Source: a virus (taxonomy: Duplodnaviria; Caudoviricetes). Taken from it: a stretch of DNA of 64,000 bases. Positions 3,927-11,271 of this stretch are shown piece by piece (position 1 is the first letter of the stretch; each line of letters starts with the position of its first letter). The stretch lies in IMG/VR virus record IMGVR_UViG_3300032319_000326, positions 1-64,000 of that record; one strand, given 5' to 3'. The notes beneath the pieces are model-generated. The model was given only the letters and a program-made list of their open reading frames with translations. It did no database searches and was not told the DNA's origin. The position numbers and the translations under genes were made by a program.

Positions 3927-4013
3927 TTTGACGGCACTGTAGGGTGCAGTCGTAAGCAAGATCACCCCTAGCATAATCTGAAACAGTGAAGCGTTAAGAT
4001 CTTGACCGTCAAA
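3927..4013 (+). ncRNA. stem-closed non-tRNA RNA with possible pseudoknot
   Basis: TTTGACGG/CCGTCAAA, CACTGT/ACAGTG and CAAGATC/GATCTTG complementarities. Confidence 0.5.
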
Positions 4014-4021
4014 TATTTCAT

Positions 4022-4079
4022 ATCCGCTAATGTTCCAAGGATTAGGCGACAGGCTCTCCAAAAGCCCGTGGGGCTACCA
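4022..4079 (+). pseudogene. truncated tRNA-Trp(CCA) paralogue lacking a T-arm
   Basis: 5' 19 nt identical to tRNA-Trp at 4350; GGCT-CTCCAAA-AGCC arm; ends ACCA. Confidence 0.6.
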
Positions 4080-4087
4080 TTTTAAAA

Positions 4088-4173
4088 GTGACGAGGGCAA
4101 CAAAGAGACTTAAACCCAAAAGATTGAAGGAGCCTTTCTAGACTGGTACTTCCTACTGGGGTAATCTCGTCAC
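4088..4173 (+). ncRNA. stem-closed non-tRNA RNA
   Basis: GTGACGAG/CTCGTCAC perfect 8-bp terminal helix, tRNA-sized. Confidence 0.4.
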
Positions 4174-4183
4174 AATATTTAAC

Positions 4184-4260
4184 GGTCGCATCGTCTATGT
4201 GTGATAGGACACCATCCTCTCAAGATGGAGAATAGGGTTCAAATCCCAATGCGACTACCA
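4184..4260 (+). tRNA. tRNA-Glu(CTC)
   Basis: CCATC-CTCTCAA-GATGG, TTCAAAT, CCA. Confidence 0.88.
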
Positions 4261-4265
4261 TTTTT

Positions 4266-4344
4266 TTGAGGTTCATACAGTATTACATAACCGTGATCAA
4301 GGTCTATAAATGATGTATTAACTGATTGGCTCAGACGACCTCAA
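4266..4344 (+). ncRNA. stem-closed non-tRNA RNA
   Basis: TTGAGGT/ACCTCAA terminal helix plus an imperfect inner helix. Confidence 0.35.
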
Positions 4345-4349
4345 TAAAT

Positions 4350-4426
4350 ATCCGCTAATGTTCCAAGGTTAGGCGAGTTGGACTCCAAATCCGACTGGGA
4401 AAGTTCGATTCTTTCAGCGGATGCCA
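4350..4426 (+). tRNA. tRNA-Trp(CCA)
   Basis: ATCCGCT/AGCGGAT, TTGGA-CTCCAAA-TCCGA, G73, CCA. Confidence 0.88.
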
Positions 4427-4434
4427 TTTTTTCA

Positions 4435-4548
4435 AATACATTAGGTGAAGGCAACGAACGTAGCTTAACTGGTAAAGCAACCGCACGAATAAGCGGGAGT
4501 CATTCAGTTCGAATCTGAATCAATAGTTGAAGTAGTAAGTAATGTATT
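4435..4548 (+). ncRNA. tRNA-like core (D, anticodon and T arms) without acceptor stem, inside a longer terminal helix
   Basis: TAGCTTAACTGGTAAAGC, CCGC-ACGAATAA-GCGG, ATTCAG-TTCGAAT-CTGAAT; AATACATTA/TAATGTATT closing stem. Confidence 0.55.
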
Positions 4549-4576
4549 GACACTGATAGACATTGAATGTTATAAT
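4547..4576 (+). promoter_or_regulatory. possible internal promoter (TTGACA-N18-TATAAT)
   Basis: perfect hexamers, long spacer. Confidence 0.45.
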
Positions 4577-4640
4577 CTGACGAGGTTATAAGTAGTAGAT
4601 GGAACGTTCGTTGAAATCCAGTAAACATTTTATTTTCAAT

Positions 4641-4763
4641 TCCAGTGTAGCTCAATGGTAGAGCATGCGGCTGTGGGCCATAAAGTATTATTTAATAGAG
4701 AGTGCAAATCTCACAAGGCCAAAGTTAACCGCAGGGTTGGGGGTTCGATGCCCTCCGCTGGAG
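4641..4763 (+). tRNA. tRNA-Asn(GTT) interrupted by a 51-nt insert in the anticodon loop
   Basis: TCCAGTG/CGCTGGA acceptor, G73; TGCGG-CT[insert 4673-4723]GTTAA-CCGCA. Confidence 0.8.
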
Positions 4764-4780
4764 CTTTTTTTCAATAGTTT

Positions 4781-4897
4781 TATATGATGTATGATATGTG
4801 CTGATTAAGGGTTAGGCAGTTGATCAAATTGCAATAGTATGAACATAAAGTGCCTTAAGAGATTTAAATAATTTCATTGTTCATCATACATTATATA
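4781..4897 (+). ncRNA. stem-closed non-tRNA RNA
   Basis: TATATGATGTATGA/TCATACATTATATA 14-bp terminal helix. Confidence 0.4.
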
Positions 4898-4903
4898 TTT
4901 TTT

Positions 4904-4989
4904 GGGGTATTATACTGATAAAGACGCAGAACGGTCTGTAAAACCGTTGCCTTCGGGCTGGGTAGGAGCATTACCTACATACCCCACCA
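4904..4989 (+). tRNA. tRNA-Tyr(GTA)
   Basis: ACGGT-CTGTAAA-ACCGT, long variable arm, CCA. Confidence 0.88.
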
Positions 4990-4994
4990 TTTTT

Positions 4995-5072
4995 GACAGG
5001 TGTTAGTGCGCAGGGTGTGGTAAAGGAGCAGGCGACTCTGTTCCGAAAAGGTTCGATTCATTTGACTTGTCA
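4995..5072 (+). ncRNA. degenerate tRNA-like RNA
   Basis: GACAGGT/ACTTGTC closing stem, GGAGCAG/CTGTTCC hairpin, GTTCGATTC T-loop remnant, no CCA. Confidence 0.45.
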
Positions 5073-5085
5073 ATTTATTTTTAAT

Positions 5086-9209: not shown

Positions 9210-9339
9210 TAAAAATTTATTGATTAGTCATTCTGAATACTATATATTAGTAACAATATGAATTTAATTTCACAACCTAGTCAAGCCAGTCAACTCCCAT
9301 CTGGAAGTTGAAGGCGAGGTTGTTTGCTCTTAAAGAACC

Positions 9340-9374
9340 AACCCGTCACTTCAAAAAAAGAATGATGGGTTTTT
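9340..9374 (+). terminator. intrinsic terminator
   Basis: AACCCGTCA/TGATGGGTT plus T-run. Confidence 0.6.
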
Positions 9375-9386
9375 GATTTTTAGGTG

Positions 9387-9414
9387 TTGACAATTTGAGA
9401 AGGTGTGGTAAATT
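9387..9414 (+). promoter_or_regulatory. sigma70 promoter of tRNA array 2 (TTGACA-N16-TAAATT, extended TG)
   Basis: hexamers upstream of leader RNA copy 2. Confidence 0.7.
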
Positions 9415-9429
9415 AGAAATATAACGAAC

Positions 9430-9523
9430 GGGGTTGAAACTCTATCTGATGTCCCCAACATAAGTTAAAACATTTGATCGGTCACTGGGTGTTATGCTGA
9501 AATACAGAACCCATCTGGCGATA
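9430..9523 (+). ncRNA. conserved structured leader RNA, copy 2
   Basis: homologous to 3324-3453. Confidence 0.65.
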
Positions 9524-9553
9524 ATGACATAAAGTATATAACAATTTTTAAAT

Positions 9554-9629
9554 GGGTGGTTAGCTCAGTTGATAGAGCATTTGCTTTACACGCAAAATGT
9601 CATAGGTTTAAATCCTATACCACCTACCA
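9554..9629 (+). tRNA. tRNA-Val(TAC)
   Basis: TTTGC-TTTACAC-GCAAA, CCA. Confidence 0.9.
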
Positions 9630-9636
9630 TTTTAAT

Positions 9637-9714
9637 CCATCCGTCGCCTAACTTGGTATGGCACTTCATTTGGGGTGAAGAATAATAGGCGTTCAAATCG
9701 CCTCGGGTGGACCA
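9637..9714 (+). tRNA. tRNA-Pro(TGG)
   Basis: C1-G72, A73, CTTCA-TTTGGGG-TGAAG, CCA. Confidence 0.9.
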
Positions 9715-9777
9715 ACTTTTTAAACTTCAAGTATTTTTGTTCCGACTTTTAAAAATTTCAATACTATTTATTAATGT

Positions 9778-10656
9778 ATGAATAAAATTGAAAAAGAAAT
9801 AACATTAAATGTTGAAAAATTTAAACATATTGTTTGCAATAGCAATGGAATCGGAGAAATTTGTAGAAAATATAATTTTCCAGATAATGGAAAAAGTAGA
9901 AACATAGTTAAAAACTATATAATACAATATAACTTATCAGTAAAATACAATTATCCCAGAAAATACCAAATAATTGAAAAACATTGTGGTTTTTGTCAAC
10001 AAAAATTTCAAACTTTGTTAGGACATCCGAAAGAAAAAAAAACATGTTCACATAAATGTGCTAATAAGATGTTTGCAAAACCGTTGAATGAAAATCAAAA
10101 AGAAAAAATTAGTAATGGTATAGAAAAAATAAATAAACGGATAGCTGAGATAAAAATAAGAAAAATATGTAATGTATGTTCTATTGATTTTTTTTCTCAA
10201 AGTAAAAATCAAAAATATTGTTCGAATAAATGTTCTGCAAATTCAAGAAAAAATGACATAGATTATCGTAAAAAATTAAGTGAGTTAGCTAAACAACGAG
10301 TTATAAACGGAACACATAACGGTTGGAATTCAAGAAAAATAATTTCATATCCAGAACAATTTTTTATGGGGGTTCTTATGAATAACAATATTTCATATCA
10401 ACATAATAAACCCGTTGGAAAGTATTTTATAGATTTTGCTATTGTAGAAAAAAAGATAGCATTAGAGATTGATGGAAAGCAACATCAATATGAAAACAGA
10501 AAAAAATCTGATGAAATAAAAGATAAGTTTTTAACAGAAAATGGATGGAAAGTTTATAGGATTTCTTGGAAGTCAATTAACAATGAAAATGGTAAACTTT
10601 ATATTAAAAATGAAATAAATAAATTTGTTGAATTTTATAATGGGCATATGGCGTAA
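9778..10656 (+). CDS. free-standing homing endonuclease, DUF559/Vsr-like PD-(D/E)xK with Zn-binding repeats
   Basis: YFIDFA...IALEIDGKQH...DKFLTENGWKVYRISW; CxxC...CSxxC repeats. Confidence 0.85.
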   Translation: MNKIEKEITLNVEKFKHIVCNSNGIGEICRKYNFPDNGKSRNIVKNYIIQYNLSVKYNYPRKYQIIEKHCGFCQQKFQTLLGHPKEKKTCSHKCANKMFAKPLNENQKEKISNGIEKINKRIAEIKIRKICNVCSIDFFSQSKNQKYCSNKCSANSRKNDIDYRKKLSELAKQRVINGTHNGWNSRKIISYPEQFFMGVLMNNNISYQHNKPVGKYFIDFAIVEKKIALEIDGKQHQYENRKKSDEIKDKFLTENGWKVYRISWKSINNENGKLYIKNEINKFVEFYNGHMA

Positions 10657-10726
10657 TTGGCAGCCGCACGAGTCTTAGAAGCTCGGGGAGAAATCCGTGG
10701 GGGTTCAAGTCCCTCTATGCCCACCA
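10642..10726 (+). tRNA. tRNA-Leu(TAG)
   Basis: CGAGT-CTTAGAA-GCTCG, variable arm, CCA. Confidence 0.92.
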
Positions 10727-10737
10727 ATTTATTTTAT

Positions 10738-10821
10738 GGAAGTAGTCCGGCAGGTCGAGGAAACTGTCTTGAAAACAGCTGGGGCCATAAACCCTCACAG
10801 GTTCGATTCCTGTTGCTTCCG
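10738..10821 (+). tRNA. tRNA-Ser(TGA)
   Basis: CTGT-CTTGAAA-ACAG, long variable arm, G73. Confidence 0.85.
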
Positions 10822-10907
10822 CTCTTTAAATACAACTCCACTTGACATTGGAACTGAGGACTGATAATATCGTCCCATGAAGAAATCAGAGATTGTCAAA
10901 ATTTTAC

Positions 10908-10997
10908 GGTTGGGTGGCAGAGCGGTCTAATGCAGAGCTTTGCTAAAGCTCCGAGGTATAAAAGCCTCCGAAAGTTCGAATCTTTCCTCAACCGCCA
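10908..10997 (+). tRNA. tRNA-Ser(GCT)
   Basis: GAGCT-TTGCTAA-AGCTC, long variable arm, CCA. Confidence 0.92.
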
Positions 10998-11002
10998 TTT
11001 TT

Positions 11003-11076
11003 GCAGGTATGATGTAATGGTAGCCTGACGCACTTCCAATGCGTATGTGAGAATTCGATTTTCTCTACCTGCTCCA
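11003..11076 (+). tRNA. tRNA-Gly(TCC)
   Basis: ACGCA-CTTCCAA-TGCGT, U73, CCA. Confidence 0.9.
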
Positions 11077-11087
11077 TTTTTAGTAAC

Positions 11088-11162
11088 CGGGGATTGATTG
11101 TAATAGTAGCAAATCAGACTTTGAATCTGAGAGAATCGGAGCGTAACCGGTATCCCCTGCCA
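11088..11162 (+). tRNA. tRNA-Gln(TTG)
   Basis: TCAGA-CTTTGAA-TCTGA, 1-72 mismatch, G73, CCA. Confidence 0.85.
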
Positions 11163-11171
11163 TTTTATATA

Positions 11172-11271
11172 TGTCGGTTAAGGGTGTAATTTTAGAGAAA
11201 TTGTAATGAGTGATCATCAGTTACAAGAGTAAGAACTAGTGATCGAAAGATCCGTTCATCAAACACCGACA
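11172..11271 (+). ncRNA. stem-closed multi-hairpin non-tRNA RNA
   Basis: TGTCGGT/ACCGACA closing helix; TTGTAA/TTACAA and GATC-GAAA-GATC hairpins. Confidence 0.5.

What the first reader, a model, noticed from the sequence alone, without database searches (positions are those of the whole stretch)
3927..11271. Repertoire of non-tRNA small RNAs interleaved in the tRNA arrays
Seen: at least eight 70-120-nt units sit in tRNA-like slots between T-rich spacers, each closed by a 7-14-bp terminal helix but lacking a cloverleaf or CCA: 3927-4013, 4088-4173, 4266-4344, 4435-4548, 4781-4897, 4995-5072, 5482-5551, 11172-11271. They are unrelated in sequence. Inference: the array acts as a polycistronic small-RNA expression platform, with tRNA processing releasing stable decoy or effector RNAs.
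Basis: partly seen in the sequence, partly recalled or inferred. Interest (0 to 1): 0.7.

Follow-up and report, generated by a model that had tools for sequence, protein, structure and literature searches.

The report
Small RNAs inside phage tRNA arrays
A giant uncultured lake phage carries at least eight conserved, separately folding non-coding RNA genes wedged between its tRNA genes. Three of them are tRNA look-alikes that cannot decode, which is the arrangement known from phage T4's RNAC and RNAD, whose jobs are still unknown.

Summary
All eight units exist at the stated coordinates. Each fills a slot between tRNA genes and is closed by a 7-15 bp terminal helix. These helices beat dinucleotide shuffles (per-slot p <0.001-0.053; Fisher 4e-8), while seven other array spacers do not. 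None matches an Rfam family, carries CCA or resembles another unit.

"No cloverleaf" is wrong for two units. u4 (4435-4548) has a D-arm, anticodon-like arm and T-arm core but no acceptor stem. u6 (4995-5072) is a cloverleaf with a 7-bp acceptor and canonical T-arm but a non-decoding loop. u7 carries a T-arm hairpin.

Copies occur in related jumbo-phage contigs. u4, u5 and u6 are in 28-34 fetched loci (several loci share a contig). They stay 76-90% identical where a neighbouring gene is 67-84%, and they show compensatory pair changes. u2, u3 and u8 are known only from near-identical relatives.

Sigma-70-type promoters drive sub-operons that mix tRNAs and units. I read them as structured RNAs made with the tRNAs and released by tRNA processing. 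Expression and function are untested because no RNA data were reachable.

The closest known case is T4 RNAC/RNAD; folded here, T4 RNAC shows the same closing helix plus T-arm design. This scan has reported similar arrays in other phages. Verdict: real, new members of a known but poorly understood kind.

The parts
3927..4013 (+). u1: an 87-nt structured RNA between the odd-T-loop tRNA at 3849-3925 and the chimeric pseudo-tRNA
   Evidence: The 8-bp closing helix has p=0.021. Copies lie in 5 fetched loci. The 78%-identical copy in L095 sits in the same slot, between Arg(acg) and Trp, and keeps the helix through two double compensatory changes. A 19-nt unpaired core is invariant.
4088..4173 (+). 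u2: an 86-nt structured RNA upstream of tRNA-Glu(ctc)
   Evidence: The 9-bp closing helix has p=0.007. Copies lie in 9 fetched loci at 92% identity. Nearly all differences fall in one apical hairpin. There is no informative covariation.
4266..4344 (+). u3: a 79-nt unit between tRNA-Glu and tRNA-Trp
   Evidence: The 8-bp helix has p=0.053. It is found in only 3 loci, at 99% identity. This is the weakest case together with u8.
4435..4548 (+). u4: a 114-nt tRNA-elbow mimic. It has a D-arm, an anticodon-like hairpin and a canonical T-arm, no acceptor stem, and is held in an invariant purine-rich internal loop and a 9-bp clamp.
   Evidence: Rfam tRNA scores 23.7 bits, below the 29-bit cut-off; in L002 the match covers model positions 8-63. 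There are 13 sequence variants in 33 loci. The D, anticodon-like and T stems each carry a double compensatory change, and 99.1% of cells are paired against 23-53% when the partners are slid. The loop differs in 7 ways, is 6-8 nt long and has no U33. The model R1 built from u4 cross-hits genuine tRNAs.
4781..4897 (+). u5: a 117-nt A/U-rich RNA with a 15-bp closing helix and an invariant core
   Evidence: No shuffle in 1000 reached the helix score. The folding z-score is -2.26. Copies lie in 28 loci. The 76%-identical copy in L095 keeps the terminal helix through 4 double changes.
4995..5072 (+). u6: a 78-nt tRNA-like cloverleaf. It has a 7-bp acceptor, a small D hairpin, a 7-bp 'anticodon' stem with a 5-8 nt variable loop, a canonical T-arm and no CCA.
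   Evidence: There are 14 variants in 34 loci, with 99.7% of cells paired in the proposed structure. It is 90% identical in L098, where the neighbouring ORF is 67% identical. ARAGORN calls it a tRNA only at relaxed settings here and at default settings in L002. Rfam gives no tRNA match. In the window copy one T-stem pair is broken (G-A).
5482..5551 (+). u7: a 70-nt RNA with a 10-bp closing helix and a T-arm-like hairpin in its 5' half
   Evidence: The helix has p=0.009 and the folding z-score is -2.39. Positions 17-30 match the T-arm of tRNA-Leu, Lys and Glu. Copies lie in 17 loci. In the L002/L114 lineage the helix is re-registered and the unit ends in CCA plus a T-run, like the tRNAs.
11172..11271 (+). 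u8: a 100-nt unit between tRNA-Gln(ttg) and tRNA-Gln(ctg) in the second array
   Evidence: The 7-bp helix has p=0.044. It contains a 4-bp hairpin capped by a GAAA loop. It is found in only 5 loci, at 99-100% identity.
4547..4576 (+). Internal promoter P2 (12 of 12 consensus matches). Its -35 hexamer overlaps the last bases of the u4 clamp.
   Evidence: The region is 82-96% conserved in relatives. Other promoter-like sites head the remaining sub-operons: 3283-3310, 5179-5206, 9387-9414, 10842-10870 and 12146-12174.
4014..4087 (+). Chimeric pseudo-tRNA: the 5' two-thirds of tRNA-Trp joined to the 3' end of the tRNA that precedes u2 in relatives. It looks like a recombination scar joining two array types.
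   Evidence: Bases 1-59 are 98% identical to tRNA-Trp of relatives. Bases 52-74 equal the 23 bases directly upstream of u2 in L096/L108. The array orders in L095, L090 and G001 fit this reading.

Best explanation
The eight units are genuine, selectively maintained, independently folding non-coding RNA genes embedded in the phage's polycistronic tRNA operons.

**Shown.**
- They lie on the tRNA strand, downstream of sigma-70-type promoters.
- Each has a closing helix longer than chance gives.
- They have raised G+C.
- They match no known family.
- They keep their order relative to the tRNAs across a clade of roughly 300-kb lake phages.
- u1, u4, u5 and u6 show compensatory substitutions.

**Inferred.**
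- They are co-transcribed with the tRNAs.
- They are freed as a by-product of tRNA maturation. An endonuclease cuts in the U-rich trailer after the upstream CCA. RNase P cuts at the 5' end of the next tRNA and, for u6, probably at its own acceptor. 3' exonucleases then trim back to the closing helix, which protects both ends.

Three units (u4, u6, u7) derive from tRNAs or copy tRNA parts (T-loop, D-loop, elbow), yet they cannot decode or be charged as encoded. They most likely act through tRNA shape, by binding a protein or RNA that recognises tRNAs. The other five are unrelated folds with conserved unpaired cores (shown for u1 and u5), which suggests sequence-specific binding. Their molecular targets are unknown.
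For: - **Closing helices.** Per-slot p <0.001-0.053 against 0.07-0.55 for control spacers; Fisher 4e-8.
- **Composition.** G+C is 0.40 in units, 0.28 in other array spacers and 0.32 in the window.
- **Not coding, no known family.** No ATG-started frame longer than 22 codons lies within any unit. No Rfam family matches. No phage in GenBank matches u4, or the first array beyond its tRNAs.
- **Conservation.** u4, u5 and u6 lie in 33, 28 and 34 fetched loci. The units are as conserved as the tRNAs and more conserved than the neighbouring ORF in the two distant relatives. In L098, u4 is 76% and u6 90% identical against 67% for the ORF. In L095, u1 is 78% and u5 76% against 84%. Unit bodies are better conserved than their 6-nt flanks.
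- **Covariation.** u4: 3 of 5 helices carry double changes, and 0 of 500 shuffles reach the observed covariation score. u5: 4 double changes in the terminal helix. u1: 2 double changes in the terminal helix. u6: 99.7% of cells paired and 1 double change.
- **Operon layout.** Promoters head the sub-operons.
- **Generality.** Relatives hold further closed units in other tRNA slots.
- **Precedent.** In T4, rnaD and rnaC directly follow tRNA-Arg on the same strand. Folded here, T4 RNAC shows a closing helix plus a canonical T-arm. Both RNAs accumulate in infection (PMC9697503).
Against:
- Whole-unit folding z-scores are modest, -1.2 to -2.4.
- u2, u3 and u8 are known only from 92-100% identical relatives, so nothing tests their structure.
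- The closing helices of u4 and u6 never vary, which is uninformative.
- The arrays are mosaic and hold a clear recombination scar (4014-4087), so non-functional sequence can persist there.
- The window's u6 has a broken T-stem pair.
- No target or partner has been identified.
Confidence: 0.6

Rival explanations
1. The units are cis-acting spacer modules. They exist to help the tRNAs: they insulate neighbouring tRNAs from misfolding, give entry or stop sites to RNases, or stabilise the polycistronic precursor. They have no job once released.
For: - Every unit sits exactly in a tRNA slot.
- The closing helix is the one feature they all share.
- The 15-bp helix of u5 is close to RNase III substrate length.
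- The sequences are unrelated, as expected if only shape matters.
Against: - Most tRNAs in the same arrays are separated by only 5-13 nt with no such module, so modules are not needed for processing.
- Internal unpaired cores are invariant across 76-78% identical copies (u1 19 nt, u5 core).
- tRNA-like elbows are kept with covariation. This is more constraint than an insulator needs.
Confidence: 0.15
2. The units are decaying tRNA genes and recombination debris, carried along in a fast-shuffling array. The closing helix is a relic acceptor stem and there is no present function.
For: - u4, u6 and u7 retain tRNA parts.
- 4014-4087 is a tRNA chimera.
- Array content is mosaic among relatives.
- The loops of u4 and u6 drift freely.
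- u2, u3 and u8 have narrow distributions.
Against: - Scaffolds are kept at 76-90% identity with compensatory changes, over a divergence at which spacers no longer align and a neighbouring ORF is 67-84% identical.
- Flanks diverge while bodies do not.
- u1, u2, u3, u5 and u8 show no tRNA likeness, even at Rfam E-values up to 10.
Confidence: 0.15
3. The inverted repeats act at the DNA level, for example as folded recombination sites for cassette exchange (in the manner of integron attC sites) or as protein-binding sites near promoters.
For: - Units are gained and lost like cassettes among relatives.
- Like attC sites, they are 70-120 bp, diverse in sequence and closed by inverted repeats.
- The 3' arm of u4 overlaps a -35 hexamer.
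Against: - No integrase or recombinase gene lies in or next to the arrays among the ORFs scanned.
- The ends lack the attC core pattern (AAC at the 5' end, GTT at the 3' end); this is read directly from the sequence.
- Internal hairpins with T-loop and D-loop sequences and covariation point to RNA.
- The one visible recombination junction lies inside tRNA bodies, not at a unit's helix.
Confidence: 0.05

Closest known systems
Phage T4 RNAC and RNAD (species 1 and 2 small stable RNAs) in the T4 tRNA gene cluster
   Same: - They are encoded on the tRNA strand, directly after a tRNA, inside a cluster that also holds a homing-endonuclease gene.
- They are 119 and 139 nt long.
- Folded here, RNAC has a closing 5'/3' helix and a canonical T-arm next to its 3' end, as u6 and u7 do.
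- Their function is unknown, yet they accumulate in infection (PMC3014915, PMC9697503).
   Different: - There is no sequence similarity beyond the T-loop motif.
- T4 has two such RNAs at the end of the cluster. Here at least eight are interleaved among the tRNAs and shuffled among relatives.
- The design of u4 (elbow kept, acceptor replaced by a purine-rich loop and clamp) has no T4 counterpart that I could see.
Bacterial tRNA-spacer small RNAs, such as the E. coli 3' external transcribed spacer of the glyW-cysT-leuZ operon, which sponges RyhB and RybB (from my own knowledge: Lalaouna et al. 2015)
   Same: A functional small RNA is released from a tRNA precursor as a by-product of tRNA processing.
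   Different: Those are short, largely unstructured pairing sponges that work with Hfq. The units here are closed multi-helix folds, and no pairing target was found in the phage's own 91.7 kb.
Bacterial Y RNA-like YrlA (Rfam RF02553), a tRNA-like partner of the Ro60/Rsr protein
   Same: It is a tRNA-elbow mimic fused to a long closing stem, and it does not decode. Some phages carry such RNAs and the Ro-type (TROVE) protein (PMC7824862).
   Different: - u4 keeps the normal D, anticodon-like, T order, not the permuted order of YrlA.
- Rfam YrlA gives only 17.8 bits against a cut-off of 69, and the match lies outside the units.
- No TROVE gene is found in this record or in a complete relative.
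Murine gammaherpesvirus 68 tRNA-miRNA encoded RNAs (TMERs) (from my own knowledge)
   Same: A virus uses tRNA-like units that are not charged, together with host tRNA-processing enzymes, to express other small RNAs.
   Different: That is a eukaryotic system using RNA polymerase III and RNase Z with microRNA hairpins. It has no relation in sequence or host machinery.

Membership tests
Canonical tRNA (Rfam RF00005) | Score at or above the 29-bit gathering cut-off over the whole 71-position model | tested here: not met
   Only u4 scores at all: 23.7 bits with E 0.26. In L002 the match covers model positions 8-63. u1, u2, u3, u5, u6, u7 and u8 give no match at E-values up to 10.
Canonical tRNA (Rfam RF00005) | A 7-bp acceptor stem followed by a discriminator base and CCA, which every other tRNA of this array encodes | tested here: not met
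   None of the eight window units has CCA. In u4, positions 1-7 and 66-72 cannot pair, as read from the sequence. u6 has a 7-bp acceptor but is followed by AAT. One lineage of u7 ends in CCA plus a T-run.
Canonical tRNA (Rfam RF00005) | A 5-bp anticodon stem with a 7-nt loop that has U33 and a conserved anticodon | tested here: not met
   The u4 loop is 6-8 nt, has 7 different sequences among 13 variants and has no U33. u6 has a 7-bp stem and a 5-8 nt loop in 3 versions.
Canonical tRNA (Rfam RF00005) | A T-arm with a UUCRANY loop and a D-loop GG, which together form the elbow | tested here: met
   This is met for u4 (T-loop UUCGAAU and a D-loop with GG; both stems covary). It is met for u6 (T-loop UUCGAUU). 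u7 has only the T-arm-like hairpin. It is not met for u1, u2, u3, u5 and u8.
T4 RNAC/RNAD-type small stable RNAs of phage tRNA clusters | Encoded inside or at the end of a phage tRNA gene cluster, on the tRNA strand, and not itself a tRNA | tested here: met
   for this window; for T4.
T4 RNAC/RNAD-type small stable RNAs of phage tRNA clusters | 5' and 3' ends paired in a closing helix; for RNAC, a T-arm next to the 3' strand | tested here: met
   for the units and for the T4 RNAC fold. The T-arm lies next to the 3' strand in u6 only.
T4 RNAC/RNAD-type small stable RNAs of phage tRNA clusters | Accumulates as a discrete stable RNA during infection | not testable with these tools
The phage is uncultured.
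T4 RNAC/RNAD-type small stable RNAs of phage tRNA clusters | Sequence homology to T4 rnaC or rnaD | tested here: not met
   Only 7-10 nt chance-level words and the T-loop motif are shared. The kind is the same, but the families are not homologous.
YrlA / bacterial Y RNA | A match to RF02553, the permuted arm order (T-arm before D-arm), and an rsr (TROVE) gene in the genome | tested here: not met
   The best YrlA match is 17.8 bits against a cut-off of 69, at 4588-4698 and outside the units. The arm order of u4 is D, anticodon-like, T. No TROVE gene is found in G000 or in the complete relative G001.

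The most novel reading that the evidence does not exclude
This phage clade uses its tRNA operons to deliver a shuffled set of counter-defence RNAs. The tRNA-shaped units (u4, u6, u7) would keep the elbow that tRNA-binding proteins dock on, but lack a normal anticodon loop and, in u4, the acceptor stem. They would therefore act as uncleavable decoys that soak up host tRNA-targeting immune nucleases of the PrrC, PARIS AriB, retron PtuAB or Schlafen type. The free drift of their loops would then reflect an arms race.

Context fits but does not prove this. About a third of the true tRNAs have altered T-loops. 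The arrays are highly mosaic. A complete relative encodes a T4 Rnl1-type tRNA-repair ligase.
Probability: 0.15. Interest if true: 0.8.

Novelty: new member of a known kind. Interest (0 to 1): 0.45.

Why it matters
Non-tRNA RNAs in phage tRNA clusters have been known since T4's species 1 and 2 RNAs, and fifty years on they still have no assigned function. This clade offers a larger natural set: at least eight families, three of them tRNA mimics, each with several variants across related contigs. It shows which parts are constrained (scaffold, elbow, unpaired cores) and which are free (apical loops).

That makes the question testable. The units can be expressed from a plasmid and checked for processing and stability. 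They can also be challenged with the tRNA-targeting defence systems now available in E. coli. The result also means that phage tRNA-array spacers should not be annotated as empty.

Tried and rejected
- **Known RNA families.** Rfam found nothing in the units, at gathering scores or at E-values up to 10, beyond the sub-threshold tRNA match in u4.
- **GenBank phages.** Only tRNAs matched the first array, and nothing matched u4.
- **YrlA/Ro60 reading of u4 and u7.** Rejected: wrong arm order, no Rfam match and no TROVE gene.
- **Phage-encoded 3' end repair.** No CCA-adding enzyme and no RtcB were found in G000 or the complete relative.
- **Antisense regulator of the phage's own genes.** Units against the 91.7-kb record share only 10-14 nt words at chance level.
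- **The invariant 20-mer of the u4 clamp.** It also occurs in a phage structural gene (L116) and in a bacterial gene of a Roseivirgaceae MAG (L175). In both it encodes the same six residues, N-T-L-G-E-G, in an A/T-rich reading frame. I read both as coincidences and not as host clues.
- **More divergent homologues.** The metagenome scan added no new variants of u1, u2, u3, u5, u7 or u8. The u4 covariance model found no copies beyond those blast had already found.
- **Diversifying selection on the u4 loop.** Considered and not claimed. With neighbouring ORFs 67-95% identical at the DNA level, free drift of an unconstrained 7-nt loop would explain the variety.
- **attC-like DNA sites.** Considered and given low weight (see rival explanations).

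Full report
**Setting.**
- The window is the first 64 kb of a 91.7-kb IMG/VR virus record. CheckV estimates it is about 30% complete.
- Its G+C is about 32%.
- Its genes are those of a myovirus-like jumbo phage: PhoH, Hsp20, a baseplate protein, an SbcC-like ATPase and DUF559/REase-type endonucleases.
- A related contig of 295.8 kb is rated complete.
- All tRNA genes lie on the + strand in two arrays, 3510-5840 and 9554-12500. A tmRNA follows at 14660-15045.
- Default ARAGORN finds 16 tRNAs. Relaxed settings add about nine more whose T-loops are not UUCRANY, plus a tRNA-Asn with a 51-nt insert.
- Sigma-70-type promoter matches, one of them perfect (4547-4576), divide the arrays into sub-operons.

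**The observation.**
- To avoid testing helix-defined boundaries, I took each whole inter-tRNA slot. I then asked for the best stem between its first and last 25 nt, against 1000 dinucleotide shuffles.
- The eight slots give p from <0.001 to 0.053. Seven other spacers of the same arrays, mostly promoter-bearing, give 0.07-0.55. Combined, Fisher gives 4e-8.
- Whole-unit folding energies are unremarkable (z -1.2 to -2.4). So the signal lies in the closing helix and in conservation, not in overall stability.
- The units have 40% G+C, against 28% for the other spacers and 49% for the tRNAs. No unit holds an ATG-started frame longer than 22 codons.
- They share no sequence with each other.

**Relatives.**
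- Protein-anchored and pattern scans fetched loci from about 20 or more related viral and metagenome contigs that carry the arrays.
- Copy counts in fetched loci, several of which share a contig: u4 33, u6 34, u5 28, u7 17, u2 9, u1 5, u8 5 and u3 3.
- Two relatives are usefully distant. L098, whose neighbouring ORF is 67% identical in DNA and 60% in protein, keeps u4 at 76% and u6 at 90%. L095 (ORF 84%) keeps u1 at 78% and u5 at 76%. These levels are comparable to the tRNAs themselves.
- The 6-nt flanks of u5, u6 and u7 are far less conserved than the bodies (0.69-0.73 against 0.90-0.94).
- Order is kept. In L095, u1 lies between Arg(acg) and Trp, and u5 between Asn and Tyr. In the complete relative, u2, u4 and u6 sit in the same slots as here.
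- Other slots in relatives hold further closed units that are absent from this window.

**Structure, unit by unit.**
- *u4* is a tRNA-like core in the normal order. It has a D stem-loop with GG, a 4-bp stem with a 6-8 nt loop, and a T stem with UUCGAAU.
  - The seven bases on either side, where the acceptor stem should be, cannot pair.
  - Outside them lie a 4-bp helix, an invariant purine-rich internal loop and a 9-bp clamp.
  - One strand of the loop holds GAA and the other AGUA, the signature of bulged-G modules. That reading is an inference and was not tested.
  - The D, middle and T stems each show a double compensatory change. 99.1% of cells are paired, against 23-53% when the partners are slid.
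  - Rfam's tRNA model matches only positions 8-63 in L002. A model built from u4 picks up real tRNAs with its core.
  - The loop has seven versions among 13 variants and never has U33, so it does not decode.
- *u6* is a cloverleaf. It has a 7-bp acceptor, a small D hairpin, a 7-bp stem with a 5-8 nt loop in three versions, and a T arm with UUCGAUU. 99.7% of cells are paired. It has no CCA.
- *u7* has a T-arm-like hairpin in its 5' half. In one lineage it ends in CCA plus a T-run.
- *u5* keeps its 15-bp helix through four double changes and has an invariant core.
- *u1* keeps its helix through two double changes and has a 19-nt invariant unpaired stretch.
- *u2, u3 and u8* have only near-identical relatives, so their structures remain untested predictions.

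**Mechanism.**
- The arrangement, shown above, fits co-transcription with the tRNAs.
- Release is inferred. Every tRNA here encodes CCA followed by a U-run, the E. coli-type layout. In that layout an endonuclease cuts the trailer, exonucleases trim back, and RNase P cuts the 5' end of the next tRNA. A spacer whose two ends are locked in a helix would survive as a discrete RNA.
- u6 has the 12-bp acceptor/T stack and elbow that RNase P recognises, so its 5' end is probably cut directly.
- No CCA-adding enzyme, RtcB or Ro60 is encoded by this record or the complete relative. The complete relative does have a T4 Rnl1-type RNA ligase.

**Comparison with known cases.**
- In T4, rnaD (119 nt) and rnaC (139 nt) follow tRNA-Arg on the same strand, in a cluster that also contains a homing endonuclease.
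- Folded here, RNAC has a closing helix and a canonical T-arm, the same design as u6 and u7.
- There is no sequence homology. The T4 RNAs accumulate late in infection and have no known role (PMC3014915, PMC9697503).
- The YrlA reading fails.
- The decoy idea fits current knowledge that hosts attack tRNAs and that phage tRNAs evade them (PMC10264068, PMC13056530), but nothing here tests it.

**Evolution of the array.**
- Content is mosaic among relatives.
- The segment 4014-4087 is a chimera: the 5' part of tRNA-Trp joined to the 3' end of the tRNA that precedes u2 in other lineages.
- One lineage has Arg, u1, Trp, u4. Another has Arg, Glu, u2, Glu, Trp, u4.
- The window looks like a recombinant that joined both and so holds u1 as well as u2 and u3.

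**Verdict.**
- The platform reading is reasonable and has a direct precedent. The decoy or effector reading is open.
- Earlier notes of this scan describe the same kind of array in other phages, so this is a further and fairly rich example rather than a first.

Noticed in passing
window 3510-3584, 3849-3925, 4906-4979, 5086-5161, 5326-5397, 5406-5479, 11088-11162, 12031-12106, 12183-12254: About nine otherwise cloverleaf-shaped tRNAs (Thr, Met or Glu, Tyr, Phe, Asp, Ile, Gln, Pro, Ala) have 7-nt T-loops such as AGCAUUA, AGCAUAA or GGCGGAA in place of UUCRANY. Most are found only with relaxed ARAGORN settings. Relatives often carry a different allele of the same tRNA. These could be tRNAs that escape T-loop-directed enzymes or nucleases.
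   Followed up: partly
window 4641-4764: tRNA-Asn(gtt) carries a 51-nt insert in the anticodon loop. Relatives keep this copy next to an uninterrupted tRNA-Asn (L003 7062 and 7144; L098 3916 and 3998). Other relatives hold tRNA-like genes with 30-nt inserts.
   Followed up: partly
window 5641-5837: A 197-nt RNA with a 7-bp acceptor, G-CCA end, D-arm, a 7-bp stem with a 7-nt loop, and a T-arm, carrying about 125 nt in the variable-arm position. Its folding z-score is -2.78. It is found at 97% identity in only one relative lineage. It belongs to the same repertoire as the eight units.
   Followed up: partly
window 3684-3759: A tRNA-like gene with an oversized anticodon loop. ARAGORN reads either a 4-base anticodon (ctct) or Gln(ctg) with a 3-nt insert. 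It is conserved at 97-100% in several relatives.
   Followed up: no
window 9778-10656 and 11449-12006; 11357-11400: Two endonuclease genes (DUF559/REase-like and HNH) sit inside the second tRNA array. The 44 nt before the HNH gene match the 5' part of a tRNA-Pro allele that is intact in the complete relative. A different full tRNA-Pro follows the gene at 12031-12106.
   Followed up: partly
window 3400-3480 and 9480-9530: A shared conserved motif precedes both arrays, and relatives keep it before both arrays too. I did not test that.
   Followed up: no
G001 (complete 295.8-kb relative) 287636-288202: A T4 Rnl1-type RNA ligase gene (PF09511, 57.7 bits) lies about 7 kb beyond that phage's third tRNA array. 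It could serve tRNA repair or the removal of the mini-inserts.
   Followed up: no
window 5177-5224: A 9-bp inverted repeat brackets the promoter-like site at 5179-5206 (p=0.07 against shuffles).
   Followed up: no
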